Shown piece after piece: positions 1 through 27,031 of a DNA stretch of 64,000 nucleotides. Under the pieces are notes generated by a model, which ran no database searches, was not told where the DNA came from, and saw nothing but the letters and a program-made list of their open reading frames with translations. Position numbers and translations under genes: made by a program. The DNA lies in the IMG/VR virus record IMGVR_UViG_3300027779_001649, positions 24,824 through 88,823 of that record; one strand, given 5' to 3'. The DNA comes from a virus. Position 1 is the stretch's first letter. Every line of letters starts with the position of its first letter.

Positions 1-7
1 CAGACAT
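1..7 (-). CDS. gp22: Start of probable prohead scaffold gp22 (runs off the window edge)
   Basis: ATG at 7 with AGGAG RBS and TATAAATA at 47-54; position directly after gp21 matches T4 order; only 2 codons visible. Confidence 0.45.
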
Positions 8-46
8 AGGGGGATCTCCTTTTTTATTCTAACTTCCTTATTTGTT

Positions 47-54
47 TATTTATA
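47..54 (-). promoter_or_regulatory. T4-type late promoter TATAAATA
   Basis: Exact consensus, intergenic after gp21. Confidence 0.75.
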
Positions 55-56
55 AA

Positions 57-13348: not shown

Positions 13349-13654
13349 TTATACTCCAAAACTTTCACCACATCCACAACTACTCGTAGATGTTGGATTT
13401 TTCACTGTTAGAAAACTACCACCGAGCTCGGTTATATAATCAATCTCACTACCCAAAACGTACATCTCAGCAAGTGGGTCAACCACAAGAACATCCTCTA
13501 TAGGCTCAGACCATTCAACATCAGGCAGATTGCTCTTCAGATTCCAGACATACTGGAAACCAGAACATCCTCCACCGACAACAGCCAGTGTTACAAAGTC
13601 TCCCTTAGATACAGACTTTAAGTAGTCTCTTGCAGATTGTGTTAATGTTACCAT
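13349..13654 (-). CDS. iscA: A-type Fe-S carrier (IscA/HesB family)
   Basis: GGGCSGFQY and C-terminal CGCGESF. Confidence 0.92.
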   Translation of the reverse strand: MVTLTQSARDYLKSVSKGDFVTLAVVGGGCSGFQYVWNLKSNLPDVEWSEPIEDVLVVDPLAEMYVLGSEIDYITELGGSFLTVKNPTSTSSCGCGESFGV

Positions 13655-13667: not shown

Positions 13668-14061
13668 TCTTTTCTTTCATTAATTTTTGTAACTCTGCTG
13701 TAGAACCAACAAATAAGGCGTTAGTTACATTCTTAGGTGCAGTATTAGGAACGTCCTGTAATCTTTTCATCTTCTCTTGTAAGTCACCTAGTTTTTCGGT
13801 AACTTCTGCGACCTGTTTGATAAGATTTCCAGCAACCTCATATCCTCTTGGATGTTCGCCTTCCTTTGCGAGTTCAAGTATTCCGTCAATCGCAACTGAA
13901 CCCTTTTCAACAAGTTCATGAAATTTTTGCCTTTGATATTCATAGTCTGTTTCAATATCCTGTTCCTTATCTGCGACAATTAGTTTTGTTACAGGAGTCT
14001 CTGTAACCTCTAATTCTTTTCCAATAACACCCAAGGCACTATCTATAGTTTTAGTATCCAT
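13663..14061 (-). CDS. gp16: Terminase small subunit
   Basis: DYEYQR, EHPRGYEV, NALFVGSTAELQK. Confidence 0.93.
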   Translation of the reverse strand: MDTKTIDSALGVIGKELEVTETPVTKLIVADKEQDIETDYEYQRQKFHELVEKGSVAIDGILELAKEGEHPRGYEVAGNLIKQVAEVTEKLGDLQEKMKRLQDVPNTAPKNVTNALFVGSTAELQKLMKEKT

Positions 14062-14442
14062 TTAGTTCACCTCTACTATCTCTTGGACTGATGTGGAATG
14101 AGAGTTATATGCTTCGCCAAATTCTTCTCTTAATTTGGTACTTATTGTAGTCGCACAATATTTTTTACATACCCTAGGAGCATTTTGTGGATCTTTTATT
14201 AAACCTTCATAAAATTCTGTCCATTCTTTAGAATTAATTATATCGTCAATAGTCTCTACATTACTTAGTTTTAAATGTTCTTTAAAGAATATTTCTTCAA
14301 TACCTATATGGTATGTTGGTGTTTGTCCATCAACAGTTTGATAGGGGTCTGTCCAACAACAAGGAATTAAATATCCCCTTGCAGAATAACCATAACCTTT
14401 ACCAGATAAACATCTGGGCTCTAATTTTCTTTTTACTGGCAT
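14062..14442 (-). CDS. Stand-alone SPASM/twitch-like Fe-S domain protein (start MPVKRK at 14442)
   Basis: PRCL...GYLIPCCW...PRVCKKYC; own GAGGAG RBS. Confidence 0.75.
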   Translation of the reverse strand: MPVKRKLEPRCLSGKGYGYSARGYLIPCCWTDPYQTVDGQTPTYHIGIEEIFFKEHLKLSNVETIDDIINSKEWTEFYEGLIKDPQNAPRVCKKYCATTISTKLREEFGEAYNSHSTSVQEIVEVN

Positions 14443-15290
14443 AATGAACTCCTCCTCAACCACTGTTCTTCATTCCAAGGAAGTTTATCATCCACATCCT
14501 TTACTCTATTATTAACTTCAGTAGTAGTAAATGGTTTGCTACTAATAAAATTTTTTGTATTTTTTGGTTTAAATTCATCATCATCTCCTCTCCATCTAGA
14601 AGAGTATAATTTTAAAAACCTAATACCAGCATCTGTTGCACGTTTCTGAACCTCATCTATGTGATCTTCATTATAACTAAAAACTATGCATTGTTGTTCA
14701 ACCTGTAACCCCATATATTTAGCTATCATCGCCATTTTCCAAAGTTTTTCACCGTCCTGATTAACTCTATACTTATGACTTTCTTCTGGTAATCCATCTA
14801 TACCAAATCTCCACACTGCTAGGGGATGTATTTCAAATGCCTTTTTATACCACTTCTCTGACCTATGTGAAGCTGCGGTTGCAATACATGTATAGACTTT
14901 TTCTTCATAACATCTACGTAAAATATCGTGGAACTTAGGATGGGCGGTTGGATCTGAAATTTGACCACAAAAAAGAATATTAGTAAAATGCATAAGAATC
15001 TTATCAAAATCTTCAAGGGACATATCGTGACCAGGCGGTTTCATGCCAGAGGCGGCATAATCCTGTCTCCTACATCTTGGACAGGCTAGAGGACATCTTG
15101 GAGATAAATCTATATTAATTTTAGTACGATACTTCGCTTTATATATTAATTCATCATTAGATAATTTATCGTTTGATCCCTTTGTCCAATGATCTCGTTG
15201 AGTGAGTATTGGTTTTTTTAAAGACCTTTTAGCTATCTGAGTTCTAAGATCTAGTTCTTTTAACTCACCTTTAGTGTATTCTACAGGCAT
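14433..15290 (-). CDS. Radical SAM enzyme (paralog 1)
   Basis: CPLACPRC (CxxxCxxC), CGQISDP, FGIDGL, YRVN. Confidence 0.9.
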   Translation of the reverse strand: MPVEYTKGELKELDLRTQIAKRSLKKPILTQRDHWTKGSNDKLSNDELIYKAKYRTKINIDLSPRCPLACPRCRRQDYAASGMKPPGHDMSLEDFDKILMHFTNILFCGQISDPTAHPKFHDILRRCYEEKVYTCIATAASHRSEKWYKKAFEIHPLAVWRFGIDGLPEESHKYRVNQDGEKLWKMAMIAKYMGLQVEQQCIVFSYNEDHIDEVQKRATDAGIRFLKLYSSRWRGDDDEFKPKNTKNFISSKPFTTTEVNNRVKDVDDKLPWNEEQWLRRSSLCQ

Positions 15291-15293
15291 AGT

Positions 15294-16094
15294 TTATTCA
15301 TCGTCACCTGTTACTGGATTAAATGTTTTAGCATCTTCAAAGAAAGAGGTTGCTTCATTAAATCCAAAATTATCATCAGCTTCAGCTGTCATGGGAGACG
15401 GTGTAACCACCAACCTTTGTTCTCTCTTAGGTGATGCATCTGGCATATCTGTATATTGATCTGCTTGCACTGTTTTAATAACTTTACTAGAGCTAACTGG
15501 ACCGTAGAGATAAAATTTACAAGTGAAAGCTAGTGTATATACTATTGCTCGTCTCGCAGTAAAGTCACCTTCATAACTATCTTCATATGAAACACTATTA
15601 AGAATTAAAGGAATGTCCCTTTTAATTCCCATATCTGCCATATCATTTATCGTCACCGTATAGTCTGGTTGAAAGTATGGTAGAATTTGTTCTACGATCT
15701 GTAATGCGTCCTCAGATTGTTTAGCCATTATGTAAAGCTCAAATGAGAGATTATAAGGAACAGGCATATATTGTGTATCTAGTTGAGTTGAATTTGCACC
15801 TTTAACTTTTTTGAATTTCTGTACACGATTAAGTTTACGAGCTGCATCGTATTCTAGATTCTTAATTTCAAATCCTATACGTGGAAGTGTAACTGCAACC
15901 TGTTTTGTAAGGTCTGCATCTTCACGTAATCGGACTAGAAATTTTTCTTTCGGGCCGTATGCAAGAGGAACTTTCATAGTTTGTACTACGGTTCCACTGC
16001 TATCTTTACGAACCAAGTGTATGTTGTTGAATATTGATCCAAACGCAACAACCACCTTTCTCATGGTTTCGTGGTAAAATTGTTGTCCTAACAT
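15294..16094 (-). CDS. gp15: Tail sheath stabilizer/tail terminator
   Basis: FYHETMRK, KVPLAYGPKEKFL, LPRIGFE, QIVEQILPYFQP. Confidence 0.95.
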   Translation of the reverse strand: MLGQQFYHETMRKVVVAFGSIFNNIHLVRKDSSGTVVQTMKVPLAYGPKEKFLVRLREDADLTKQVAVTLPRIGFEIKNLEYDAARKLNRVQKFKKVKGANSTQLDTQYMPVPYNLSFELYIMAKQSEDALQIVEQILPYFQPDYTVTINDMADMGIKRDIPLILNSVSYEDSYEGDFTARRAIVYTLAFTCKFYLYGPVSSSKVIKTVQADQYTDMPDASPKREQRLVVTPSPMTAEADDNFGFNEATSFFEDAKTFNPVTGDDE

Positions 16095-17104
16095 TATAAT
16101 CCTCCAGCATCACCGAAAGGATTTCTTTCGGAGAAGTCTAATACGTCATCATCAAGGGAATCAAACAGTTCATTTTGTGTAGTCTTGTCTTGCGACATAT
16201 CACCCACTACGTAATCTTCATTGAGTAAGTAAGAATCGTCACCACTGTCTGCTGGGTTCTCTAATATAATACTTTCACCAACACCACTTGTATCATTCTC
16301 ACCTATGAGATTATCTCCACTAGTCTCTTCTAATAGGAGTCCTTGATCTCCATTAGTACTTATACCGATTTCTAATCGTATATTCTCATTGACAAAGGCA
16401 GTTTGTTCTAAGGTCATCTGATAACCAAGAGCATCCATTGTATGTTCTGTTTCTATTGCATCTATAGCTGCAATGTCTGTGTCAATAACCTCAGAGCTGT
16501 AGTCAAATAATCTACATTGTAGTTTATATACTGGGTTATTATCCAGTTGATAAAAAGGTTCGTCATGGTCTACAAAATTTATTTGGAATATTTTATCCAG
16601 AACTGGATGGTATATTAAATCACCTTCCAATGGTCTATCTGCATCTGTAGAGGTAGCTTCTGAAATTAAATAACCCCCATCATAAGAACTACTAATATCT
16701 ACAACGGTACTATCTAAAGAGGCTGCTTCTAATTGAATAGAACCACTTAGAGTGGATGTACCACTTTCTATTGTCATTTGTTTTGTTAAATCTTGAAACC
16801 TTGTTTTACTTACAGTAAATGTAACCTGACTTAGATTTTGTAAACCAAACTGAGTCATCAGTTCTCGTTCACCAGCAAAACCTCCATCGCCGTTATCAAT
16901 ATACATCTCTATTTTATTTTGGGTAGTAAATTTTGCGAGGTTGTCTTCACCAAAAAGAGTGTCTTCATTAGTTAAAGTGCGATCAAGATAGTAGACATCA
17001 TGACCGAAAATTTGAATGGCTTCAGTAAGTAAATTTGAATACAGATTCTTCTCTGCGGTAATAGCATGAGAATTACTAGTATGAAAGAATGAATTGACTG
17101 ACAT
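16094..17104 (-). CDS. gp14: Neck protein with acidic insertions
   Basis: EAIQIFGHDVYYL, RPLEGDLIY, PFYQL, LDFSERNPFG. Confidence 0.9.
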   Translation of the reverse strand: MSVNSFFHTSNSHAITAEKNLYSNLLTEAIQIFGHDVYYLDRTLTNEDTLFGEDNLAKFTTQNKIEMYIDNGDGGFAGERELMTQFGLQNLSQVTFTVSKTRFQDLTKQMTIESGTSTLSGSIQLEAASLDSTVVDISSSYDGGYLISEATSTDADRPLEGDLIYHPVLDKIFQINFVDHDEPFYQLDNNPVYKLQCRLFDYSSEVIDTDIAAIDAIETEHTMDALGYQMTLEQTAFVNENIRLEIGISTNGDQGLLLEETSGDNLIGENDTSGVGESIILENPADSGDDSYLLNEDYVVGDMSQDKTTQNELFDSLDDDVLDFSERNPFGDAGGL

Positions 17105-17107
17105 AGT

Positions 17108-17926
17108 TTATCCTACATGAAACATTATTGGGGGTTCATTACTTAATATCGTTGTTTCTATTTCTCTAATTTCTTCCTGAGCTTGTGTAAAGATAGCTGC
17201 ACCATCCATACTAACACCCCCCAGCATCGTAACTCCATTGAACTTAGAAAGATTTGCACCCCATTGACGTTTAATTAAAGCTGTTGCATATCTTTTTAGA
17301 TGGATGTCATCATAAATGTCTGTGTAAACTGAGGGATCTAATTTACGGAAACACTCTATAACAACATAGTCCTCTCCACCCACAAAGTCTGTAGACCAAT
17401 CGGCGTCAATATATAAACGATTTTGATGTTCCTTAAAACGAATAGGAGCTTCACCAACAAGAATATGTTCTAGTAAATCTAAATTATTCATCATCATCTG
17501 GTAATGGATAACAGAAGTGGAAGTCAGATCAAACAAATCGTTTAGATGTAACTGATAACGAGCATCAAACATATTTGCACCAGTTCCAGTTCCAGTTAAA
17601 GGAAATACCTGTACTACAGAGATAACTGAACTAGGTAATGGTATATAATTATTACCCTCAGACCAATCTGCGGTAATAGTATCATCTACTGTATCTGTTC
17701 CTGTAGTGGTTGTATTTGTTTTAGCTCTAGTAACTTCTGCTTCAGTAACCAAATGTTTGAGATACATTCTTTCAACACCATCATAATGATACTGTGCAAA
17801 ATACTGTAGTGCTTCGTCAATACGGTCATCTGTTTGGTCATCTGACACATTAATGTCAATCACTCCATAACCCAATGCTCGTAGACAATAAGTCTTAAAT
17901 GTTGCTTTTGTTGTTGGTACTGCCAT
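17108..17926 (-). CDS. gp13: Neck protein
   Basis: YCLRALG, INVSDDQ, YHYDG, YATALIKRQWGANLSKF. Confidence 0.95.
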   Translation of the reverse strand: MAVPTTKATFKTYCLRALGYGVIDINVSDDQTDDRIDEALQYFAQYHYDGVERMYLKHLVTEAEVTRAKTNTTTTGTDTVDDTITADWSEGNNYIPLPSSVISVVQVFPLTGTGTGANMFDARYQLHLNDLFDLTSTSVIHYQMMMNNLDLLEHILVGEAPIRFKEHQNRLYIDADWSTDFVGGEDYVVIECFRKLDPSVYTDIYDDIHLKRYATALIKRQWGANLSKFNGVTMLGGVSMDGAAIFTQAQEEIREIETTILSNEPPIMFHVG

Positions 17927-17945
17927 AATTCCCTACCTTTTACTA

Positions 17946-17953
17946 TATTTATA
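17946..17953 (-). promoter_or_regulatory. Late promoter TATAAATA upstream of gp13
   Basis: Exact consensus. Confidence 0.75.
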
Positions 17954-18452
17954 AAAGAAGAGGTCTGGTTACTACGCAATTATCATCATCAAAGTAACTC
18001 TGTTTGACGAAATTTACCCCAGTATATGCGTATAAAGCACTCAATTTTGGATATGACCATATAATTTCACATCCTCTTTTTCTTCCATAATCCATAGTCT
18101 CATTTAATAACCAAGTTGATAGACCTAATCCTCTATGTTTAGGATGTACCCATAACCCCCTAGACCTATAAATTTTAAGTCCACATTGAGATCCTGAGTT
18201 AACACCCACTATTTCTTCATATGATTCTCCATAATGACTAACGTATTTTATTGCTATAAAGACAGAAGTTTTGAGATACCTTTTAATATCTAACTGTCTT
18301 ATAACTTTATTTCCCTCCAAAGCCCATGTACTATGGGGATAAATGGTTTTCTTATTTTTCCATAAGTCCGACTTCCATACCTTATATATCTCCTCAAACG
18401 ACACGGGTTCTAGATAGTACAGCTTATTTTCCCCAGTAATAATCTGCGGCAT
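17949..18452 (-). CDS. GNAT-family acetyltransferase
   Basis: RSRGLWVHPKHRGLGLSTWLL acetyl-CoA motif A; WSYPK. Confidence 0.8.
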   Translation of the reverse strand: MPQIITGENKLYYLEPVSFEEIYKVWKSDLWKNKKTIYPHSTWALEGNKVIRQLDIKRYLKTSVFIAIKYVSHYGESYEEIVGVNSGSQCGLKIYRSRGLWVHPKHRGLGLSTWLLNETMDYGRKRGCEIIWSYPKLSALYAYTGVNFVKQSYFDDDNCVVTRPLLL

Positions 18453-19500
18453 AATTATAAGGAGTAAATGCTTTGTTCTTATAAGGAACTACTTTACTTG
18501 CCCATTTCTTTTGACTCGCAAGAACTTTCCGAAACCATTTGTTCTTTTTGGATTCTTCTTTAAACATAATATCTATGGTTTTCAATTCTGCAACAAGAAT
18601 ATCAGGTGGTGTCTTCATGATACGCACCCCATGCTTTTCAACCATTCTTGATAACGCTCTTGCGTTTTCGGATTGTATCCAAGTGAGCCACCACAGATAG
18701 GACTCATATGCAGCAGAACGCACTGAGGCACGTTGAGAGTCAGATAGACTCCTCCAGATACCACCATTAATAAGAAGGTCACCAGTATTACTATGTTCAT
18801 GTAAACTATTTAGATAGTAATATTTCCAGATAGTTGGAAACCCTAGTCTTTCATCTTCTAATCCACCGACAAATTCTGCACAGTTGATTACACCTTTCTG
18901 TCCAGCAGCAAGAATCTCTCCACCAGGCATACCAATAGTCTGCATACCCATACGAGCATATAGTTCTACATTAATGCCTGTCTGTCTGCACTTAAAGTTT
19001 TTAAGGTCTGCAAGGTTTTCAATTGGACGATGGAACCACCCCAAAGGTTGATTCTGAGTAGGCATAACAGGGAAAGGGACTACATCCAGTTTCAACACTT
19101 CTTGATAAAATGTACGATACATCTCTAGTCCACCACCGTGAAACATCCATCCAAGAAAATCAATACCATCCATTCCATATGGGCCTCCTAAAGGAGAGTT
19201 AAATAGTCCTAGAGTTTTATCCTTACCCACCCAATAATAACTCTGTGTCCATGCACCTCCCACAGCACCAGATGCTGTTGCATCAAGAACTTGAAAGGCT
19301 GGGACTAAAGCACCAGCAGGTTTAATCTCCATCAGAACTTTACCATCAGTTAGAACTTTAACTTTATCTGCAATGAACTTTGCTTGTTCATTGAAAGTAC
19401 TAACAGCAGGATAAGAACTTGCGATTAAGATTTTTGTGCCCGCAGATGCAGGGGAAAAGGTTAATAGGATGGCAGCCGCAGCCATATAAATATATTTCAT
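18424..19500 (-). CDS. dctP: TRAP substrate-binding protein, TakP-like (2-oxo/monocarboxylate subgroup)
   Basis: Signal peptide; PAGALVPAFQVLDA, YYWVGK, QPLGWF, DLKNFKCRQTG (conserved Arg), MPGGEI, CAEFVG. Confidence 0.9.
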   Translation of the reverse strand: MKYIYMAAAAILLTFSPASAGTKILIASSYPAVSTFNEQAKFIADKVKVLTDGKVLMEIKPAGALVPAFQVLDATASGAVGGAWTQSYYWVGKDKTLGLFNSPLGGPYGMDGIDFLGWMFHGGGLEMYRTFYQEVLKLDVVPFPVMPTQNQPLGWFHRPIENLADLKNFKCRQTGINVELYARMGMQTIGMPGGEILAAGQKGVINCAEFVGGLEDERLGFPTIWKYYYLNSLHEHSNTGDLLINGGIWRSLSDSQRASVRSAAYESYLWWLTWIQSENARALSRMVEKHGVRIMKTPPDILVAELKTIDIMFKEESKKNKWFRKVLASQKKWASKVVPYKNKAFTPYNYAADYYWGK

Positions 19501-19526
19501 GATTACTCCTTATTCAAATCACTTCT

Positions 19527-20771
19527 CTAGTTATTTAGGTACGTTGGTAACCACGTTGCTATACTAGGAATCATAAAAATAATTATCACAGCAAGTACCT
19601 GTATCCACATAAACGGCATCATACCTTTAAATATCATACCCAAATCCCATTCTGGAACGACCTGTTTTATATAATATGATGTTAACGCAACGGGTGGTGT
19701 TAAGTAGGCAGTCTGTATAACTATCCCTAAACAAACTGCAAACCATAACATATCCACACCAGAACTAATAAGAACTGGTAAGAATATGGGAACAAATACC
19801 AACACTACCACAGGCCATTCAAACGGCCATCCCAATAGATGACATAGTACTAGTATACAACCGACTAATGCCCAAGGGGGTATTGGTAAAGAATTTAAGG
19901 TGTCCACTATCACGTTATCGCCGCCTAGTGCAGTAAAGACCGCACCAAATATTGTGGAGGAGATTGCGAGTAGCATAACCACAGCAGAAGTGTCTGTAGT
20001 TTTTAATAGAGTTTCTTTCAGTTCTAACTTACCGTTTAACAATGCAAGAACTAATGCACCGAAAGCACCAAACGCACCAGCTTCTGTAGACGTTGCAAGT
20101 CCAAATAACATAGAACCTAACACAGTAGATATAAGAACTGCTAGAGGGATAACATCTATTAAAACTCTACGATAGTCTGGTGTCTCTTGTTGTTTGGGTA
20201 CAGAATGAAATAGACAGTATATCGCATACATTGATGCAATCATTAATCCTGGCACTAATGCTCCAGCATAAAGATCAATAATACTAAGGTTCATAGTAGG
20301 AGCCATAACTATAAGAGGAACGGATGGTGGTATCATAATAAGAGAACCACCACCAGCAATAACTCCTGCCGTCAATTTCGGATTGTAACCTAGTTTCATC
20401 ATATGAGGAGCTGCCATAATACCAAGTAATGTTACAGACGCACCAACTACTCCTGTCGCAAGACTTATCAATACTGCAATAACAATAACAACTAAGTTAA
20501 GATTACCAACTATAGTTTTCATACTATAGAATAGTTTCTCAACTAATCCTGCCTTTTCGCAAATATAACCCATGAATATAAACATAGGTATAGCCATGAA
20601 TACTTCGTTTGATAATGCGCCGACTAAGTTATAGTACGCAAGATCAAATACATTCTCCCCCATAGAGAGAAATCCAAAACCTAATGCTAGAAATATAAGA
20701 GTGAAAGCTACAGGTAAACCCAAAAATATACCTATAATCATAGTCACTAACATCACAATCGCAAGCAACAC
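19527..20771 (-). CDS. dctM: TRAP large permease
   Basis: GLPVAF, AIPMFIFMG, IPPSVPLI, ATSTEAGAFGA, YLTPPVA. Confidence 0.92.
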   Translation of the reverse strand: MLLAIVMLVTMIIGIFLGLPVAFTLIFLALGFGFLSMGENVFDLAYYNLVGALSNEVFMAIPMFIFMGYICEKAGLVEKLFYSMKTIVGNLNLVVIVIAVLISLATGVVGASVTLLGIMAAPHMMKLGYNPKLTAGVIAGGGSLIMIPPSVPLIVMAPTMNLSIIDLYAGALVPGLMIASMYAIYCLFHSVPKQQETPDYRRVLIDVIPLAVLISTVLGSMLFGLATSTEAGAFGAFGALVLALLNGKLELKETLLKTTDTSAVVMLLAISSTIFGAVFTALGGDNVIVDTLNSLPIPPWALVGCILVLCHLLGWPFEWPVVVLVFVPIFLPVLISSGVDMLWFAVCLGIVIQTAYLTPPVALTSYYIKQVVPEWDLGMIFKGMMPFMWIQVLAVIIIFMIPSIATWLPTYLNN

Positions 20772-21196
20772 TTCCTCACTTCCTGTACACCATATATCAA
20801 TAACAAAATTAATCCTAAAGTAATAGAAAATTTATATGGCCATATTATTAATTGCGTCATTGTATTGGAACTCTTTTCCCATATAGAAATGCTTCTAAAA
20901 CTATCCATTGCAGAATAGTACGTGAGAATACCAATAGAGGGAAAGAATAGACAGTAACCTAGAAGATCTATGATTGATTTTGTTCTATCTGAAAAGTTCT
21001 TCCAGTAGATATCTGTTCGTATGTGAGTTCCTTTGGAAAGACTATAACTAGCACCTAATATAATTAATGCGCCATATAATTGTGGTACGATATCAACAGC
21101 AAAGTCAAATCTTAAATCAAAAAAAAATCTACCTAGAACATTGGTAACAGTTAGTAAAACGATTCCCAAAACAAACCATGAATATATTTTAATCAT
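20753..21196 (-). CDS. dctQ: TRAP small permease
   Basis: Four hydrophobic segments, GRFFF, LGASYSL, HIRTDI. Confidence 0.88.
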   Translation of the reverse strand: MIKIYSWFVLGIVLLTVTNVLGRFFFDLRFDFAVDIVPQLYGALIILGASYSLSKGTHIRTDIYWKNFSDRTKSIIDLLGYCLFFPSIGILTYYSAMDSFRSISIWEKSSNTMTQLIIWPYKFSITLGLILLLIYGVQEVRKCCLRL

Positions 21197-21877
21197 CTAC
21201 TTCTTAATTTGCATATGAGCATTAAAACTCATACTCCTTCTTTCACCTTTAACATGAAATGGATAGACAAAGTGTTTTAAATAGGACGGAAAAACTAATA
21301 ACTTTCCAACCTCTGGTTTAAATTTTACACCATCACTTCGCATATCACAAGCCTCTCCATACATAAATTCAATCAAACCATTCGCAGGGTAATGGTCTTC
21401 ACCATCCTCTTGATATTCTCCTTCCATCTCATCAGGTAATTTTAAATAGATGACGGCTGAAAAGTCACCACTATGTTTATGCCAAGGATTATACTCCCCA
21501 GCATATTGACTGACTATCCAGCTCTGTGTTAAATGGATGTTATCTAATTGGGGAACAGTACTATGTCCTGACATCTTGTACCAATTATATGCTCTATTCT
21601 TGTCTCTTATATAATTTAGGTAGTCCAGACATCCCCTCTTCATAGTATCAGAGAGATACTTCTTATCATCATCAGAGGAAATTGGTATCTGAATTTCCTT
21701 ATGAACCTTGCCTACCAGATTATCAGACCAATCCCATTGAGCACTTTGTTGCTCACTACTTAGTATCTTGTCTCCAACCTTATTTACAATTTTAACGAAC
21801 GTCTCTGGTACAGAGGTTTCTAAAATCGTAGGACTGAATACTTCATGCCAAATCTTATCCCCTCTTATCTTAGTCAT
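21197..21877 (-). CDS. 2OG-Fe(II) oxygenase (HxH...H...R type)
   Basis: YNPWHKHSG, FPSYLKHFVYPF, ERRSMSFN. Confidence 0.85.
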   Translation of the reverse strand: MTKIRGDKIWHEVFSPTILETSVPETFVKIVNKVGDKILSSEQQSAQWDWSDNLVGKVHKEIQIPISSDDDKKYLSDTMKRGCLDYLNYIRDKNRAYNWYKMSGHSTVPQLDNIHLTQSWIVSQYAGEYNPWHKHSGDFSAVIYLKLPDEMEGEYQEDGEDHYPANGLIEFMYGEACDMRSDGVKFKPEVGKLLVFPSYLKHFVYPFHVKGERRSMSFNAHMQIKK

Positions 21878-22172
21878 CTATTTCTTCATTTGCGGCAGAT
21901 GCGGTTATCTCATTTTCAATACAGTAAATATCTCTTGCATTAAAAAACTCTTGGGCATCTGCTTCTTCGTTAAAATTAAATCTACTTTCATAAGTATCAA
22001 ATAATGCTATTGCCGTCATTACCAAACCATCGTCTGAAATTATCTTAGAGACAATTCGCCGTTTTCCTGACTTATCATATTTCCAACTAAGTGTATGAAA
22101 TTTTTCTGACATTGGATACCATTCAACATCTGTGTTCGGACGGGTTAAAGTATACGTTTGTTTAACACTCAT
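21870..22172 (-). CDS. Small TRPNTD-motif protein (paralog B)
   Basis: LTRPNTDVEWY, SGKR, ISDDGLV, NARD shared with 11381..11692. Confidence 0.75.
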   Translation of the reverse strand: MSVKQTYTLTRPNTDVEWYPMSEKFHTLSWKYDKSGKRRIVSKIISDDGLVMTAIALFDTYESRFNFNEEADAQEFFNARDIYCIENEITASAANEEIDD

Positions 22173-22869
22173 TTAAATTGTTCTCCTTTACTGGGCTTCG
22201 TCTATTATAAAATACTTTTCCTTCAGAACTTATTCCATAGACACACCCCTGTTCATATTTATATGTTCTAATCATATGATTACTCATCTGGGGGCCTCTC
22301 TCTATGTATTTGTTGTTTGCCCAACCCTCAAATGATGGATGCAGATAAAATGGTTGAAAATTTTCTATAGGAAAAGAATCCCCTTGAAAATTACTAAGAA
22401 CATTCCAAGATTGTGTTAAAAGGAAATATCTAACTCTCTCTTTCCACCGTCTATCCACAAAGGTAAACAGAGTACTGTATTCATGGGGAGTAACAACTAC
22501 CCGTGTCAGTATACGAGGATTATTTATATTAAATTTAAATAATTGATCTGAAGGACATACTTCTTTAAGATATTTTGAGACAACATCATCCTCATACACC
22601 TCTATCTCCTTGTCCATATCTCTTAACTTACAGGCCCTTTCGTAACATAATTGTGTAAATCCTTTATCATCTAGATCATTATTATATTCATATGGTGGAG
22701 ATTTGTAGTATGTACCATCCATTTCAAATGGGGTATCAATAAACTCACCCTCTTTGTCATTCACATAACTGTAGGACGGTTGACCATACTTAATAATCAA
22801 GTCATGTTCTTTTATACTCTTCGCAGATTTGACATTGCGTAGCTCTGGTGTAACATAAACAAATTTCAT
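22162..22869 (-). CDS. PP-loop-family paralog lacking the SGGxDS motif
   Basis: RACKLRDMDKEIEVY...LKEVCPSDQL and RYFLLTQS...ENFQPF align to 25874..27031. Confidence 0.65.
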   Translation of the reverse strand: MKFVYVTPELRNVKSAKSIKEHDLIIKYGQPSYSYVNDKEGEFIDTPFEMDGTYYKSPPYEYNNDLDDKGFTQLCYERACKLRDMDKEIEVYEDDVVSKYLKEVCPSDQLFKFNINNPRILTRVVVTPHEYSTLFTFVDRRWKERVRYFLLTQSWNVLSNFQGDSFPIENFQPFYLHPSFEGWANNKYIERGPQMSNHMIRTYKYEQGCVYGISSEGKVFYNRRSPVKENNLNEC

Positions 22870-22874
22870 ATCAA

Positions 22875-22882
22875 TATATATA
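22875..22882. promoter_or_regulatory. Palindromic bidirectional late-type promoter TATATATA
   Basis: Centred in an 18 bp divergent gap, exactly 5 nt from each ATG (22869 minus, 22888 plus). Confidence 0.65.
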
Positions 22883-22887
22883 AGGGT

Positions 22888-23544
22888 ATGGAACCACCTT
22901 ATAGATTAGGTCTTGTTGCCACCAGTAGAAGTGGAAGTACATATTTTCGTAGATATCTTTGCGATAAATATGGTCTACACGATTCGGCCTCATGGTTAAA
23001 ACACAATCCCTATGAAAAGATAAATGAAGCCCCCTTTGCAAAGAAACATCATATTCTAAAAATTCTAACACACTATGTTCCTGATGATGAAATAGATGAA
23101 GTTATATCAGAATCAGAAACAGTATGGTTATATAGAAAGAATACGTTTAAGCAGTTTCTCTCTCATGTCTACCGACTAATAACCAAGATAAATTTGGTAT
23201 ATAAGAAGGAAGAAATAGAGTTTTTAAAAAATAGTATTCCAAACAATAGTATTGTAGCCACAACAGAACAATACGATACTTTCATGAGAAGACTTGAAAA
23301 ATTTTGGGATTTATTTTATAGTAGAAATAAAGGAACACTAGTAGAATATGAAAAATTTGTTTCTGATCCAAAAGAAGTTGGTTGGGAAATTATGGAAGAC
23401 TATAATTTAGAATGGATAACGTGGGAATCTATGGAGCCGGAATCACATGGATGGCCTGATATTAAAATACCATTGAAAATGTCCATAGATTATGAAAATA
23501 AATTTAAAAATATAGAGGAAATTAGGAAATGGTTTAATGGGTAG
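22888..23544 (+). CDS. Sulfotransferase-like P-loop protein (Stf0-like)
   Basis: ATSRSGSTYF 5'-PSB loop, LYRKN..KQFLS, VEYEKF. Confidence 0.7.
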   Translation: MEPPYRLGLVATSRSGSTYFRRYLCDKYGLHDSASWLKHNPYEKINEAPFAKKHHILKILTHYVPDDEIDEVISESETVWLYRKNTFKQFLSHVYRLITKINLVYKKEEIEFLKNSIPNNSIVATTEQYDTFMRRLEKFWDLFYSRNKGTLVEYEKFVSDPKEVGWEIMEDYNLEWITWESMEPESHGWPDIKIPLKMSIDYENKFKNIEEIRKWFNG

Positions 23545-24274
23545 ATATTGTTTAATTTGCACTCCACGGTCTGGTTCATTTTATGTTCAAAATTATATAT
23601 CCAAAATTTTTGACTTAGAATTTGGTAGTGAATGGTTTGGTAGAGTTAAGCATGTTGGATATAAAGGTATGGAGACTTCTTCAGTAGATATAGACCACAG
23701 TGTTAATGAAGACTTATTAACTAATGAAGAAATAAGTAAGAGATTAGTATATTTAAAAAACTACGAAACCTCATTTATTATTAAATGTATGCCGTTCCAA
23801 TTATCAAATACAATAGAGAGAAAAGACTTACCCGATAAAGAAAAAATGGAAGTTGCAACAAAAATTATGAAGAATTTTGATTTGATTTATATGGAAACTA
23901 AAGATAAAGTATCCCAGTTTTGTTTTGATGTTATATCTAAGAATCAAGATATTGGTAAAAGAAATTTCACCCACTACAATCCTGATATAAGACAAATACC
24001 CCTAGAAAACTCAATGACTGCAACTAGAGAAAACTACGAGAGTTTTTGTGAACGTCAAGACTTCGTTACTAGGTTTCAAGAAAAAAATTGGAAAGGTGAG
24101 CCCATAATAGTATGGGAAGATTTTATAAATAGTCCTAATATTGAAATGACAAAAATTAAAGATTGGTATAAAATTGATGAAAAAAATATTACAGTGAATA
24201 GACCCATCATCTCACATGCAGCTTATAAATTGGTCTTTAGTAATTATGGAGAAATTGAAAAATGGTTTGGATAG
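23537..24274 (+). CDS. Sulfotransferase-like P-loop protein
   Basis: CTPRSGSFY, SEWF, IIKCM, VWEDF. Confidence 0.65.
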   Translation: MGRYCLICTPRSGSFYVQNYISKIFDLEFGSEWFGRVKHVGYKGMETSSVDIDHSVNEDLLTNEEISKRLVYLKNYETSFIIKCMPFQLSNTIERKDLPDKEKMEVATKIMKNFDLIYMETKDKVSQFCFDVISKNQDIGKRNFTHYNPDIRQIPLENSMTATRENYESFCERQDFVTRFQEKNWKGEPIIVWEDFINSPNIEMTKIKDWYKIDEKNITVNRPIISHAAYKLVFSNYGEIEKWFG

Positions 24275-24834
24275 ACGGAAAAAATATGCCTAAATGGCAC
24301 AGGAATGATGATTTTCTACATGACCTTGCTATATCATTGGTAGAAGTTCATACCAGAGAACCTCAGAACGAACCAGAAACAAATATGTTTAAGATAGCAG
24401 ATGGTCTTGATACCTCTGATCCATTTGTTAAGGAAGCAGTAAGGCACTTCAATGTAATAAGAGAAGACTTAGCATGTAAGAGTGCAGTTCTACATGGTGA
24501 TTTGTGGAACGAGAATATAATCATAAAAGAAAATGGTAGATTATCAGGACTGATTGATTGGGAACACACTCAAATAGGCGACCCTCATTGGGACTTCCGT
24601 ATGATTAGAAGATTTATAGGCTGGGACGATTTACATTGGCTTATCACTTTGTATAATGCTAAGGCTCAATATAAAATTAATTCTGCTACTATTTACATCT
24701 TAGATAAACTAGCACTTTGCCATCAGTATCAATATAGACTAAGAAAAAATGATAGCCCTCTTTGGAACGACACCGCATTATTTAAAGAGTATATGGAAAG
24801 ATGGCCAGTGTGCGTTAATGAAATATCCGACTAG
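24262..24834 (+). CDS. APH/choline-kinase-like phosphotransferase (mainly C-lobe)
   Basis: LHGDLWNENII, GLIDWE, GDPHWDF. Confidence 0.85.
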   Translation: MVWIDGKNMPKWHRNDDFLHDLAISLVEVHTREPQNEPETNMFKIADGLDTSDPFVKEAVRHFNVIREDLACKSAVLHGDLWNENIIIKENGRLSGLIDWEHTQIGDPHWDFRMIRRFIGWDDLHWLITLYNAKAQYKINSATIYILDKLALCHQYQYRLRKNDSPLWNDTALFKEYMERWPVCVNEISD

Positions 24835-25414
24835 AACATATAACTTTTATAATAAGCCTATTAATCTAGATATAGTTCCCAGATGCACCCTCCTTTGTTC
24901 CAAGTGTATGAGACAATCAGATTTTTATAAGTTTGTAGATAAAAGTAAATTAGAAGAGATAAGTATAAAAGACTACGAAAAGATTCTCAACTGTTTTTCA
25001 TATGTTGAATGGTGTGGTCAAACTGGTGACCCCATATTTCATACTAAATTCTTTACTCTTCTTGAGATGAGCAGGGGTACTAAATTAGACATCCATACTG
25101 CCGCCTCACATAAACCTAAAGAATGGTATAAGAAAGCATTTAAAACTAATAAAGATGCAAAGTGGATATTTGGGGTAGATGGGTTACCAAAGGACAGCCA
25201 TATCTATAGAATAAATCAAGATGGTGAATTCCTATTTGAAGTTATGAAAATGGGATCAGATATGGGTTTAGAGATTCAGTGGCAGATGATAAAGTTTAAG
25301 TATAATCAAAATAACATAGATGAAGTAATGCAGCTCTGTAGAGATAATTCTATCAGTTTTAAATTAATAAGATCCTCAAGGTTCGTATCAGATGACCCAC
25401 TCAGACCAATTTAA
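24818..25414 (+). CDS. Radical SAM enzyme (paralog 2; start MKYPTR)
   Basis: CTLLCSKC, CGQTGDP, TAASH, FGVDGL, YRINQDGE. Confidence 0.88.
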   Translation: MKYPTRTYNFYNKPINLDIVPRCTLLCSKCMRQSDFYKFVDKSKLEEISIKDYEKILNCFSYVEWCGQTGDPIFHTKFFTLLEMSRGTKLDIHTAASHKPKEWYKKAFKTNKDAKWIFGVDGLPKDSHIYRINQDGEFLFEVMKMGSDMGLEIQWQMIKFKYNQNNIDEVMQLCRDNSISFKLIRSSRFVSDDPLRPI

Positions 25415-25892
25415 ACCAAGATGTATATCAGGACAATGTTTAGGGCATTCTAATAAGGGGTACTTAGTTCCTTGTTGTTTTGTAGATGCATTTTATGATA
25501 ATATTGAGAAAAAGAAACTCATACATCATGATAACGATAAACTTAATGCATTGTGGGATACATCCTTAAAAATTTCCAATAATAACCATATACATGATAT
25601 AACAATGAGTGATATATGGATGGATTTTTATACCATGTTACAGGATAAAGATCAAGAGAAACCTTTAATGTGTATTAAGTGTTGTGACCCTGTATATACT
25701 AAGGAGTTAAAAGAAGGTGAAATAGCTCCAACACGATTTAGCCAGAAGACTAATCCAGTACATGCTGTCAGCAGAAGAAGTACAGAAGTAACTCATGTGA
25801 TAAAGATTAATAGTATGTCAGTAAATGATGAACTTTTGGTGATGACCTCATCTGGCCGACCTAAGCCAAAAGATTATAAACAAAGAGAATGA
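25392..25892 (+). CDS. Stand-alone SPASM/twitch-like domain protein
   Basis: KPRCI...GYLVPCCF...PLMCIKCC. Confidence 0.75.
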   Translation: MTHSDQFKPRCISGQCLGHSNKGYLVPCCFVDAFYDNIEKKKLIHHDNDKLNALWDTSLKISNNNHIHDITMSDIWMDFYTMLQDKDQEKPLMCIKCCDPVYTKELKEGEIAPTRFSQKTNPVHAVSRRSTEVTHVIKINSMSVNDELLVMTSSGRPKPKDYKQRE

Positions 25893-27031
25893 CGGTCAAG
25901 ATAATCCATGATGTTATCCTTATGAACTATCGTTCCATCATTAACAATCGCCTTCACCCTAAAATCATTAGGTAATGGTGAGTAGAACTCTTTCTGAGCT
26001 CTTCCTTCCATCAATCTAGTTTTTCCTATACCATATGCAAATTCCCTATCATATAATGCAATGAAGTCTCTCAACATCATCTTTGCTTTCTGGAATCTTT
26101 CTGGGTCACTCCTAGGACTGTGATTATACCAAAACATATTTCTATTATAATGTTGATTAATTGACCACTTGTGTATATCTGGATCTCTAAAGAACGGCTG
26201 ATAATTTTCTAGGTCAATCTCATCTGCTTTTATATTTTGTAAGAAACGGAATGACTGTGTGATGAATGTATACCGTGTTATTGTCCACCACATTTCATAA
26301 TTCCATTCCTCATTTTCTGGGTCATCTAGATTTGGTTTCTTTCTTGGGTCTATTGCATACCCCAATGGTTTGTTGGGATCACGAACTGCGTCATCTACTT
26401 GTGGGGGGTAACCGACACTACCAAACAATCTATCAGCTTCGCACCCACTAGTATAAACATTAATATCTGGATTCGCCATACCATAAATGTTTCCTGTCAT
26501 ATCTAAACGATGCGGGCCTTTAATAACATAATCTTCCCATAACTTGGGATAATGTTTAATAACTGCGTCACCTCCAGCAATGATATGCAGCTGTTCTCTA
26601 GGACAAACTTCTTTCAGTGCGTATAACATAGCAGTACTATCTACACCACCAGAATAGAATACCTCAATATGTTTACCCATATCTCTTAATTCTTCTGCAC
26701 GTTTAATCATAAGGTCATTAAAGTCTGCGTTCTCTACCTCTGGATAATATTTGTAATCCAAAACAGGATAATACTTTTCCATATTATCCATATTAAACAC
26801 ATATTCATCTACACCCAAAGAATCACTTATGTATGAACTCTTAGGACGATGGCAATATTGAGTCATAAATTCTTCACGTTGTCTCGCTTCCTTATACTCT
26901 TCAAAGAACTCTTTCTCAAATTCAGGCCATCCGTACTGTCCCTTTCTAGGCGCACCTTTAACAACCTTATCCATAGCCCTTCTGAAGTCATCAGAAATAT
27001 ATACATACTTAATTGTGCTTTTCATAGTCAC
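25874..27031 (-). CDS. Asparagine-synthetase-like PP-loop enzyme (paralog 2)
   Basis: YSGGVDST, SGCEADRLFGS, AKMMLRDFI. Confidence 0.75.
   Translation of the reverse strand: MTMKSTIKYVYISDDFRRAMDKVVKGAPRKGQYGWPEFEKEFFEEYKEARQREEFMTQYCHRPKSSYISDSLGVDEYVFNMDNMEKYYPVLDYKYYPEVENADFNDLMIKRAEELRDMGKHIEVFYSGGVDSTAMLYALKEVCPREQLHIIAGGDAVIKHYPKLWEDYVIKGPHRLDMTGNIYGMANPDINVYTSGCEADRLFGSVGYPPQVDDAVRDPNKPLGYAIDPRKKPNLDDPENEEWNYEMWWTITRYTFITQSFRFLQNIKADEIDLENYQPFFRDPDIHKWSINQHYNRNMFWYNHSPRSDPERFQKAKMMLRDFIALYDREFAYGIGKTRLMEGRAQKEFYSPLPNDFRVKAIVNDGTIVHKDNIMDYLDRHSLCL

What the first reader, a model, noticed from the sequence alone, without database searches (positions are those of the whole stretch)
14062..25892. 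Radical SAM enzyme with its SPASM/twitch domain as a separate gene, present twice
Seen: pairs 14433..15290 + 14062..14442 (minus) and 24818..25414 + 25392..25892 (plus) are paralogous (TAASH..WYKKAF; FG(I/V)DGLP..SH.YR.NQDGE; PRC.SG....S..GYL.PCC). The downstream ORF is in the -1 frame in one pair and +1 in the other, and the first has its own GAGGAG RBS. So the split is real, not one frameshift error. Known: these domains are normally fused in peptide- and sugar-modifying enzymes. Inference: a heterodimeric, possibly mix-and-match, enzyme.
Basis: partly seen in the sequence, partly recalled or inferred. Interest (0 to 1): 0.7.

Follow-up and report, generated by a model that had tools for sequence, protein, structure and literature searches.

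The report
Radical SAM enzyme split in two genes
A marine T4-like phage encodes, twice, a radical SAM enzyme whose iron-sulfur "twitch" domain is a separate overlapping gene; this split is the usual state of a large phage enzyme family.

Summary
Two paralogous gene pairs lie at 14433..15290 + 14062..14442 (minus) and 24818..25414 + 25392..25892 (plus). Each is a radical SAM core gene followed by an overlapping small gene. The small proteins carry five conserved cysteines, including the CX11GX4C start of the SPASM/twitch motif and a later CX3C. Their best structural and sequence match in the PDB is the twitch domain of BtrN, but both matches are weak.

The split is not an error. Contigs from another sample and study cover both junctions without indels. 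Pelagibacter phage Mosig has the same split. Among 74 unique family members in 80 IMG/VR loci, 54 have the small gene directly downstream, in either other frame and usually overlapping. Seven have it upstream or about 1.6 kb away, and 9 are fused. In 8 loci the small domain is instead fused to a glycosyltransferase-like domain.

A complex model supports docking of pair 1 (0.83 against 0.01 for controls), possibly by likeness to fused structures. Core and small subunit co-diverge (r 0.86). That fits co-inherited pairs but does not exclude mix-and-match, which was not tested. Gene neighbours suggest a sugar or glycan substrate; this is inferred. Verdict: a new variant of a known kind.

The parts
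14433..15290 (-). Radical SAM core subunit, pair 1 (285 aa; CX3CX2C motif CPLACPRC; about 50-aa N-terminal and 45-aa C-terminal extensions relative to most homologs)
   Evidence: PF04055, 29.6 bits against cut-off 29.5; phrog_21308, E 5.8e-16; 176 homologs; dN/dS 0.21 against L012
14062..14442 (-). Separate twitch-like auxiliary Fe-S subunit, pair 1 (126 aa; C11-x11-G23-x4-C28, C29, C92-x3-C96)
   Evidence: invariant Cys and Gly; AF2 pLDDT 86.2; best of 48,161 chains is BtrN 162..236, Z 2.7; 47 of 114 relatives hit Pfam SPASM; dN/dS 0.23
14449..14457 (-). Shine-Dalgarno sequence GAGGAGGAG, 6 nt upstream of the ATG of the small subunit and inside the end of the core gene
   Evidence: the same position carries a motif in relatives L011 and L012
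24818..25414 (+). Radical SAM core subunit, pair 2 (198 aa from 24818; an ATG at 24749 is also open; CTLLCSKC)
   Evidence: phrog_21308, E 4.3e-13; 43% identity to pair 1
25392..25892 (+). Separate twitch-like subunit, pair 2 (166 aa; same C11-x11-G23-x4-C28/C29 and CX3C; extra C-terminal tail)
22888..24834 (+). Three co-directional genes overlapping each other and pair 2 by 8 to 17 nt: two sulfotransferase-like genes and an APH-family kinase. Probably one operon with pair 2.
   Evidence: coordinates; APH PF01636, E 7e-13; Sulfotransfer_3 E 5.5e-4, below cut-off; no hit for the second gene
27009..27710 (-). Glycosyltransferase-like protein, homologous to the domain that is fused to the twitch domain in other phages
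   Evidence: 28% identity, E 1e-17 to L023:3642-4733; that protein hits phrog_1962 glycosyltransferase, E 4e-13; the window protein itself has no PHROG or Pfam hit
13349..13654 (-). IscA/HesB-type Fe-S cluster biogenesis protein, one gene away from pair 1 (context only)
   Evidence: PF01521, 32.4 bits against cut-off 26.3

Best explanation
Each pair encodes a two-subunit radical SAM enzyme. The larger protein is the partial-barrel core. It binds the SAM-cleaving [4Fe-4S] cluster through its CX3CX2C motif. The small protein is a free-standing twitch domain. It would bind one auxiliary [4Fe-4S] cluster through one Cys before its beta-hairpin, one after it, and the CX3C after the long helix, as in BtrN. 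The small gene starts inside the end of the core gene, so the two are probably translationally coupled. The small subunit is modelled to dock beside strand beta-1 of the core, rebuilding the architecture of the fused enzymes. Shown here: the split is real, conserved and under purifying selection, and fused relatives exist with the break in the interdomain linker. Inferred: cluster binding, heterodimer formation and the chemistry. My best guess for the chemistry is BtrN/DesII/BlsE-like hydrogen abstraction on a sugar or glycan intermediate within phage-encoded sugar-modifying cassettes. I give that guess about 0.3 to 0.4 on its own.
For: Real split. Logan contigs of run X2 (another sample and study) span both junctions with 0 gaps. 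X3 spans junction 1. No indels are listed. Mosig_00084 and Mosig_00085 show the same split with an 8-nt overlap in the +1 frame.

IMG/VR survey. 543 stretches encode relatives, and I analysed the best 80 loci. Of 74 unique family domains, 54 have the small ORF directly downstream, 9 are fused, 4 have it directly upstream, 3 have it about 1.6 kb upstream, and 4 have none; all 4 of those lie within 66 nt of the locus end. For the 54, the frame offset is +1 in 31, -1 in 22 and 0 in 1, and the spacing runs from -65 to +1 nt. All but one of the 57 starts listed are ATG. A GGAG/GAGG/AGGA motif lies upstream in 16 of 57, against 6% background. dN/dS is 0.21 for A and 0.23 for B.

Protein clusters. 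The profile of the small protein finds 445 clusters at 50% identity. Of the best 150, 138 are 178 aa or shorter and 8 are fused forms of 304 to 335 aa.

Twitch identity. Fused homologs P0041, P0044, P0045 and P0046 carry the same Cys pattern C-terminally. C11-x11-G23-x4-C28 fits the CX9-15GX4C motif quoted in PMC6231123 (passages read). 47 of 114 stand-alone relatives hit Pfam SPASM at E <= 0.01, and no other family is hit by more than 1. The profile of fused forms hits BtrN at E 1.5e-3, aligning the CX3C to BtrN C232/C235. The model of B alone has BtrN 162..236 as its top match among 48,161 chains (Z 2.7, rmsd 2.8, 74 aligned). The model of a fused homolog (pLDDT 81.6) matches SuiB Z 17.4, DesII 16.8, MoaA, SkfB and BlsE 16.5, and BtrN 14.4 (rmsd 3.2, 199 aligned). 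Those alignments run to about model residue 312-318.

Docking. Complex prediction of A(50-245) with B scored 0.83 in all 3 runs, against 0.01 for the best of 3 controls. That mark was reached by 58 of 80 solved complexes and 2 of 110 mismatched pairs. The runs agree in at least 59% of contacts, and partner pLDDT is at least 66. A 58-61 (just before the CX3CX2C motif) contacts B 17-21. This may pass by likeness to solved fused enzymes.

Sugar context. An IscA-like gene lies nearby. In the 80 loci, a DegT aminotransferase occurs in 25, a glycosyltransferase-like ORF in 19 and an NAD epimerase in 5. The twitch domain is fused to a glycosyltransferase-like domain in one clade of 8.
Against: No experiment shows cluster binding or complex formation. 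Direct Pfam support for the window proteins is marginal or below cut-off. Foldseek with B alone found nothing at E <= 0.001. The BtrN match of B alone has Z of only 2.7. All NCBIfam matches fall far below their curated cut-offs, so no characterised orthologue exists. Pair 2 lacks a clear Shine-Dalgarno motif. The substrate is inferred from neighbours only; the window itself has no DegT gene beside either pair. The PMC6231123 passages state that fold or function is hard to predict from sequence similarity in this subfamily.
Confidence: 0.75

Rival explanations
1. Mix-and-match: the small subunits are exchangeable, so that B or D can serve either core (or the third, fused paralog). This would give combinatorial enzymes.
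For: Several paralogous pairs per genome are common, for example this window and L085, L086 and L089. Some loci carry an extra small-subunit gene: L090 has two in tandem after one core, and L085 has three small-domain ORFs for two cores. Gene order is flexible (upstream, about 1.6 kb away). The twitch domain can be attached to another protein.
Against: Core and small-subunit identities co-vary (r 0.857; 0 of 999 permutations reach it). For 60 of 72 pairs, the nearest core relative is among the 3 nearest small-subunit relatives. None of the 70 members with sequence available beyond the core gene lacks a small-subunit gene in its locus. B and D share only 30% identity. Shared descent alone could produce the correlation, so this evidence is weak. 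No non-cognate complex was modelled.
Confidence: 0.12
2. One fused protein is made after all, by programmed ribosomal frameshifting or another recoding event at the junction.
For: The ORFs overlap, and fused homologs exist.
Against: The required shift would be -1 in pair 1 and +1 in pair 2. Across relatives it is +1 in 31, -1 in 22 and 0 (a stop between) in 1. All but one of the listed small ORFs begin with ATG, and they are enriched for Shine-Dalgarno motifs. In 7 unique loci the small gene lies upstream or about 1.6 kb away. In 8 it continues into a glycosyltransferase-like domain. The junction sequences listed differ between clades; no slippery-site search was run.
Confidence: 0.03
3. Sequencing or assembly frameshift, or decaying pseudogenes.
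For: A single window cannot exclude an indel. Metagenome assemblies do contain such errors.
Against: Contigs from a second sample and study show no gaps at either junction (contigs only, and X1 may be the source). The split recurs in a cultured phage genome and in most relatives. Both halves show dN/dS of about 0.2.
Confidence: 0.02
4. The small Cys-rich protein is not a domain of the enzyme. It is its substrate (a RiPP-like precursor) or an unrelated small metalloprotein.
For: Small Cys-rich ORFs next to radical SAM genes are typical of RiPP clusters (general knowledge). The structural match of B alone is weak.
Against: The same sequence is the C-terminal domain of fused enzymes. It has the CX11GX4C signature, SPASM hits in 47 of 114 relatives and a confident fold of about 100 residues. 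It is modelled docking onto the core.
Confidence: 0.04

Closest known systems
BtrN (butirosin 2-deoxy-scyllo-inosamine dehydrogenase; PDB 4M7S/4M7T), the archetypal twitch-domain radical SAM enzyme
   Same: One auxiliary cluster's worth of Cys: one before and one after a beta-hairpin, plus two after a helix. It is the best PDB hit by sequence for the C-domain (E 1.5e-3). It is the top structural hit for B alone (Z 2.7, B 3..96 to BtrN 162..236). Against the fused model it scores Z 14.4, rmsd 3.2, with 199 of 214 residues aligned. Its substrate is sugar-like, as the gene neighbours suggest here.
   Different: BtrN is a single polypeptide. It has CX2C where this family has CX3C plus an extra adjacent Cys (CC). 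Identity is only about 16-18%. No functional equivalence was tested.
Other fused SPASM/twitch radical SAM enzymes: SuiB, DesII, MoaA, SkfB, BlsE, PqqE, anSME
   Same: Overall fold of the fused family member (Z 15.4 to 17.4; Foldseek top hit BlsE at E 2.2e-9). The auxiliary Fe-S domain is C-terminal.
   Different: All are single chains. The SPASM members carry the second-cluster motif CX2CX5CX3C, which is absent here. None is a close sequence relative (all NCBIfam hits are far below cut-off).
Pelagibacter phage Mosig EXVC030M genes Mosig_00084 and Mosig_00085
   Same: The same family and the same split (211 aa + 112 aa, 8-nt overlap). 47% identity to A over 158 residues.
   Different: They are annotated as 'putative molybdenum cofactor biosynthesis enzyme' and 'hypothetical protein', so the record does not link the two. 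Their neighbours are a DegT aminotransferase, a nitroreductase and a carbamoyltransferase rather than structural genes.
Campylobacter phage CP220 gp080 and the window genome's own third paralog (L005 1174..2187)
   Same: Distant relatives of the core (29-30% identity) with a C-terminal Cys-rich region.
   Different: Both are fused single proteins. My C-domain profile does not detect their C-terminal regions at E <= 1e-3.
CofG/CofH versus FbiC (F0 synthase), a known radical SAM system found either as two genes or fused (recalled, not checked here)
   Same: A precedent that one radical SAM system can be encoded as separate or fused polypeptides.
   Different: There, each part is a complete radical SAM domain. 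Here the cut separates the core from its auxiliary-cluster domain.

Membership tests
Radical SAM superfamily (PF04055) | CX3CX2C cluster motif near the N-terminus of the core | tested here: met
   A has CPLACPRC and C has CTLLCSKC. The three Cys are invariant in 19 aligned homologs.
Radical SAM superfamily (PF04055) | Pfam model above its gathering score | tested here: inconclusive
   A scores 29.6 bits against a cut-off of 29.5. C has no hit at E <= 1. C is 43% identical to A and hits phrog_21308, a radical SAM family, at E 4.3e-13.
Radical SAM superfamily (PF04055) | Partial (beta/alpha)6 barrel fold | tested here: met
   The AF2 model of fused homolog P0046 (pLDDT 81.6, pTM 0.85) matches many radical SAM structures at Z 12 to 17. 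This was tested on a homolog, not on A or C themselves.
SPASM/twitch auxiliary-cluster domain | CX9-15GX4C at the start of the domain (motif as quoted in PMC6231123) | tested here: met
   B and D both read C11-x11-G23-x4-C28. G23 and C28 are invariant in 114 relatives, and C11 is conserved in at least 90%.
SPASM/twitch auxiliary-cluster domain | Beta-hairpin followed by a helix, with further Cys ligands after it | tested here: inconclusive
   The AF2 model of B has strand residues at 18-19 and 24-26, helix 72-83, and then C92/C96. Its top hit among 48,161 chains is the BtrN twitch region, but at Z 2.7. Foldseek found nothing.
SPASM/twitch auxiliary-cluster domain | Pfam SPASM (PF13186) above its gathering score | tested here: not met
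   B scores 18.3 bits against a cut-off of 21.5; D has E 0.12. At family level, 47 of 114 relatives match at E <= 0.01, best 4.8e-6.
SPASM proper (two auxiliary clusters) | Second motif CX2CX5CX3C and a seventh Cys | tested here: not met
   Only five Cys are conserved (C11, C28, C29, C92, C96). Hence twitch-like, not SPASM.
SPASM/twitch radical SAM enzymes as described | Auxiliary domain is the C-terminal part of the same polypeptide as the core | tested here: not met
   The two are separate overlapping ORFs in both window pairs and in 61 of 74 unique relatives. This is the point of the finding.
SPASM/twitch auxiliary-cluster domain | Binds an Fe-S cluster | not testable with these tools
   Needs reconstitution, iron and sulfide quantification, and EPR or Moessbauer spectroscopy.
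BtrN-type radical SAM dehydrogenases | Oxidises a secondary alcohol of a sugar or cyclitol, with the auxiliary cluster as electron acceptor | not testable with these tools
   Only context is available: DegT aminotransferase in 25 of 80 loci, glycosyltransferase-like ORF in 19, epimerase in 5.

The most novel reading that the evidence does not exclude
The twitch domain of this family is a free module that evolution attaches in three ways: fused to the radical SAM core, free-standing, or fused to a glycosyltransferase. If so, it acts as a docking and electron-handling adaptor. It would couple radical chemistry to glycosyl transfer, and paralogous cores in one phage might share it. Because the two clusters then sit on separate polypeptides, the system would also be a natural tool for labelling and studying the auxiliary cluster alone.
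Probability: 0.3. Interest if true: 0.65.

Novelty: new variant of a known kind. Interest (0 to 1): 0.55.

Why it matters
SPASM and twitch domains are described as C-terminal parts of the radical SAM polypeptide. The PMC6231123 passages I read say the role of the auxiliary clusters is not fully established and their coordination state has long been debated. This family places the SAM cluster and the auxiliary cluster on two natural polypeptides. Each could be expressed, isotopically labelled and examined spectroscopically alone and then recombined, which fused enzymes do not allow. The family is abundant in marine phages: 543 stretches in IMG/VR and 445 clusters at 50% identity for the small subunit. 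The small subunit is 'hypothetical protein' in the Mosig record, the one annotated record I examined. Recognising it improves annotation of phage auxiliary metabolic genes. The glycosyltransferase fusions and DegT neighbours point to phage-driven sugar or cell-surface glycan modification.

Tried and rejected
Near-identical DNA in the phage collection: none.

Foldseek with the model of B alone: no match at E <= 0.001.

PDB sequence search with the small-protein profile alone: nothing below E 0.35, with BtrN second at E 0.56.

Polarity of the split. A quick IQ-TREE tree of 72 core domains plus an outgroup put the fused forms in three supported clades. The backbone is unresolved and some long branches join. 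I therefore do not claim whether split or fused is ancestral within the family. The minimum is 3 changes, and starred branches force only 1.

Cellular genomes. 11 loci in 185,579 species genomes, of which 10 are split and 1 is fused (L098, on a 4.15 Mb Rhizobiaceae MAG contig). Most lie on short MAG contigs that may be binned phage, so I draw no host conclusion.

Expression. The one RNA run (X11) gave four short contig pieces, one of which (14003..14155) overlaps the 3' end of B. This does not show transcription.

Habitat. Small-share runs were not used.

Literature. Searches of the held library found no description of a stand-alone or split SPASM/twitch domain: 'radical SAM' + SPASM + 'separate polypeptide'; twitch/split/heterodimer terms; 'standalone SPASM' variants; 'SPASM domain' + 'encoded separately' variants. 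I read search listings only. Subscription journals are not covered, so this is not proof of absence.

PMC7029224 (passages read) mentions radical SAM gene cassettes in pelagimyophage hypervariable regions but not the split. No supplementary file was requested. Supplements of that paper could list these genes.

Full report
SETTING. The window is bases 24824-88823 of an 88.8 kb IMG/VR virus record that CheckV estimates to be 49% complete. It is a T4-like marine myophage. It encodes a T4-type large terminase (PF03237/PF17289), the gp15 tail sheath stabiliser (PF16724, E 5.5e-84) and a small terminase (phrog_445). G+C content is 32-40%. No near-identical DNA exists in the phage collection. The nearest named relative for the genes in question is Pelagibacter phage Mosig EXVC030M.

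OBSERVATION. The four ORFs are present as described.
- A (14433..15290, minus) and C (24818..25414, plus) share 43% identity, E 6e-51.
- B (14062..14442, minus) and D (25392..25892, plus) share 30% identity, E 7e-21.
- A and C carry CX3CX2C motifs.
- At junction 1, the ATG of B overlaps the end of A by 10 nt in the -1 frame. GAGGAGGAG lies 6 nt upstream.
- At junction 2, the ATG of D overlaps the end of C by 23 nt in the +1 frame, without a strong Shine-Dalgarno motif.
- Direct family hits are weak. A reaches Pfam Radical_SAM at 29.6 bits against a cut-off of 29.5. B hits SPASM at E 0.003, below the cut-off, and D at E 0.12. A and C hit phrog_21308, a radical SAM family, at 5.8e-16 and 4.3e-13. 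All NCBIfam hits are radical SAM/SPASM-type families far below their cut-offs.

IS THE SPLIT REAL? Four lines of evidence say yes.

First, independent assemblies agree. Logan contigs of run X2 (another sample and study, though possibly the same campaign) span 14000-15347 and 21220-26000 with no gaps. A contig of X3 spans 14314-14516. No insertions or deletions are listed. X1 may be the source sample. Contigs cannot show rare variants.

Second, phage Mosig has the same arrangement. Mosig_00084 (211 aa) and Mosig_00085 (112 aa) overlap by 8 nt in the +1 frame.

Third, the split dominates in IMG/VR. A scan with an alignment of 19 homologs found 543 stretches that encode relatives, and the best 80 loci were kept. 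I scored their plus-strand stop-to-stop ORFs with HMMs of the core and of the small protein. This gave 86 family core domains, of which 74 are unique:
- 54 have the small ORF directly downstream;
- 9 are fused in one ORF;
- 4 have the small ORF directly upstream;
- 3 have it about 1.6 kb upstream;
- 4 have none, and all four lie within 66 nt of the end of the locus.

Among the 54, the small ORF is in the +1 frame in 31, the -1 frame in 22 and the same frame (separated by a stop) in 1. Spacing runs from a 65-nt overlap to a 1-nt gap. All but one of the 57 starts listed (the 54, a Mosig pair and the two window pairs) are ATG. A GGAG/GAGG/AGGA motif lies 5-17 nt upstream in 16 of 57, against 6% at in-gene control positions.

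Fourth, both halves are under purifying selection and most relatives of the small protein stand alone. dN/dS against the closest relative is 0.21 for A and 0.23 for B. A profile of 12 small proteins, searched against 1.84 billion cluster representatives, found 445 clusters at E <= 1e-3 and 238 at E <= 1e-10. Of the best 150, 138 are 82-178 aa. Eight are 304-335 aa with the domain at the C-terminus. Four others are 220-335 aa with other layouts.

A frameshift error, a pseudogene or a single programmed frameshift cannot account for these data.

WHAT THE SMALL PROTEIN IS. Fused relatives exist at about 46% identity to A: P0041, P0044, P0045 and P0046, plus nine ORFs in six IMG/VR loci. They carry the same sequence C-terminally. 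The break in the split forms falls in the linker between the core and that domain.

Five cysteines are conserved: C11, C28, C29, C92 and C96 in B numbering (the equivalent five are invariant in 20 fused sequences). C11-x11-G23-x4-C28 fits the CX9-15GX4C opening of the SPASM motif as quoted in PMC6231123 (passages read). The second-cluster motif CX2CX5CX3C is absent, so the domain is twitch-like, with one auxiliary cluster.

Further support, mostly weak taken singly:
- Of 114 stand-alone relatives, 47 match Pfam SPASM at E <= 0.01 (best 4.8e-6). No other family is matched by more than one.
- The profile of fused forms hits BtrN (4M7S) at E 1.5e-3, with the CX3C aligned to BtrN C232 and C235.
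- An AF2 model of B alone (114-row alignment, pLDDT 86.2, pTM 0.72) has strand residues at 18-19 and 24-26 followed by helices.
- Foldseek found nothing for that model.
- An exhaustive VIA-align pass over 48,161 chains returned only two chains at Z >= 2. The best is BtrN residues 162..236, at Z 2.7, rmsd 2.8 and 74 aligned residues. This is weak on its own but coincides with the sequence hit.
- The AF2 model of fused P0046 (pLDDT 81.6, pTM 0.85) matches SuiB (Z 17.4), DesII (16.8), MoaA, SkfB and BlsE (16.5), PqqE (16.2), anSME (15.4) and BtrN (14.4; rmsd 3.2; 199 aligned of 214). The alignments extend through the C-domain. Foldseek's top hit is BlsE at E 2.2e-9.

DO THE HALVES BIND? One complex job was available. 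A residues 50-245 (19-row alignment) with B (12-row alignment) scored 0.83 in all three runs, against 0.01 for the best of three controls. That mark was reached by 58 of 80 solved complexes and 2 of 110 mismatched pairs in the tool's calibration; those counts hold only roughly with my own alignments. The runs agree in at least 59% of contacts, and partner pLDDT is at least 66. The closest contacts pair A 58-61, just before the CX3CX2C motif, with B 17-21 in the hairpin region. Others pair A 90-102 with B 59-65. Halves of a split enzyme whose fused relatives are solved can pass from memory, so this shows likeness to the fused architecture rather than binding.

COGNATE OR MIX-AND-MATCH? Across 72 pairs, core-domain and small-domain pairwise identities correlate at r 0.857; 0 of 999 permutations reach that value. 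For 60 of 72 pairs, the nearest core relative is among the three nearest small-domain relatives. Paralogs within one genome have diverged: cores share 40-47% identity and small domains 29-40%. This fits pairs inherited as units, but shared descent alone could give it. Some loci carry an extra small-domain gene, for example L090 with two in tandem after one core. Exchange is therefore not excluded, and it was not tested.

FUNCTION. No curated family claims these proteins. The context points to sugar chemistry.
- Pair 2 ends a run of five overlapping co-directional genes: two sulfotransferase-like genes (one weak Pfam hit, one without any), an APH-family kinase (E 7e-13), the core and the small subunit.
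- In one clade of 8 unique IMG/VR loci, the small domain continues into a domain of about 250 aa. That domain matches phrog_1962 glycosyltransferase (E 4e-13). It is homologous to the window protein at 27009..27710 (E 1e-17). A ninth long small-domain ORF (L041, 284 aa) has a different extension.
- Clustering the other ORFs of the 80 loci gave the following counts: a DegT/DnrJ/EryC1 aminotransferase in 25 loci (Pfam E 3.7e-80 for the representative); further radical SAM proteins in 26 and 15 loci; a family without Pfam hit that I read as glycosyltransferase-like from its DxD-type motif in 19; a GDSL-like protein in 19 (weak hit); a nitroreductase in 9 (below cut-off); an NAD epimerase/dehydratase in 5.
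- Pair 1 sits between gp15 and the small terminase. This position is shared by a clade of relatives: gp15-, gp14- and gp13-like and small-terminase ORFs occur in 14-17 loci.
- An IscA/HesB Fe-S biogenesis gene (PF01521, above cut-off) lies one gene away.

The nearest structural relatives that act on small molecules (BtrN, DesII, BlsE) all work on sugar-like substrates. An alcohol-to-ketone oxidation followed by DegT transamination is the logic of amino-sugar and aminocyclitol pathways; this is general knowledge and was not tested. I therefore propose hydrogen abstraction on a sugar or glycan intermediate, at roughly 0.3-0.4 probability. PMC6231123 warns that fold or function is hard to predict from sequence similarity in this subfamily.

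EVOLUTION. On a quick maximum-likelihood tree, the fused forms fall into three supported clades and the glycosyltransferase fusions into one clade of eight. The backbone is open, so the direction of change within the family is undetermined. More distant relatives are fused: the genome's third paralog (L005, 337 aa; PF04055 at 31.3 bits) and Campylobacter phage CP220 gp080. In 185,579 species genomes, 11 loci were found, 10 split and 1 fused. Most lie on short MAG contigs.

NOVELTY. Pelagimyophage papers mention radical SAM cassettes (PMC7029224, passages read). The Mosig record annotates the core as a 'putative molybdenum cofactor biosynthesis enzyme' and the small gene as 'hypothetical protein'. 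Four full-text searches found no description of a stand-alone or split SPASM/twitch domain (listings only; the library is limited to open-access papers and preprints). I rate this a new variant of a known kind: a known enzyme architecture that is naturally and predominantly divided between core and auxiliary-cluster domain, with an alternative fusion of the latter to a glycosyltransferase. First-reader notes on this same genome made the same observation. The sequence look-up found no such note on other DNA.

Noticed in passing
window 18424..21196 (minus): A complete TRAP transporter lies directly after the neck and tail genes of a lytic-type phage: DctP (PF03480, E 2e-27), DctM (PF06808, E 8e-60) and DctQ (PF04290, E 5e-19). 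It is flanked by a GNAT acetyltransferase (17949..18452) and a 2OG-Fe(II) oxygenase (21197..21877).
   Followed up: partly
window 13349..13654 (minus): An IscA/HesB-type Fe-S cluster biogenesis protein (PF01521, 32.4 bits against cut-off 26.3) sits between the large and small terminase genes, one gene from radical SAM pair 1.
   Followed up: partly
L023:3642-4733, also L024, L027, L029, L033, L035, L060, L062, L068, L070, L075: In these IMG/VR phage contigs the twitch-like domain is the N-terminus of a protein of 352-376 aa. The rest of that protein matches phrog_1962 glycosyltransferase. The radical SAM core remains a separate upstream gene.
   Followed up: partly
G000:C1:15119-15781 region (outside the window; L005 1174..2187): A third, distant radical SAM paralog in the same phage genome (337 aa, 30% identity to A) is a single fused protein with a Cys-rich C-terminus.
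   Followed up: partly
L090 2118..3000; L085 1094..5983: Some phage loci carry more small-subunit genes than cores: two in tandem after one core in L090, and three for two cores in L085. Pfam gives no hit for the extra L090 copy.
   Followed up: no
window 25874..27031 (minus) and 27707..29065 (minus): Two large proteins without a Pfam family lie next to pair 2. The first has an SGGxDS-like PP-loop motif (read from the translation) and only a weak PHROG hit to QueC-like proteins (E 8e-4).
   Followed up: no
L098 2447..3442 (Rhizobiaceae MAG, 4.15 Mb contig): This is the only family member found on a chromosome-sized bacterial contig, and it is the fused form. L094 and L097 (Hyphomicrobiales MAGs, 174 and 228 kb contigs) carry split forms.
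   Followed up: no
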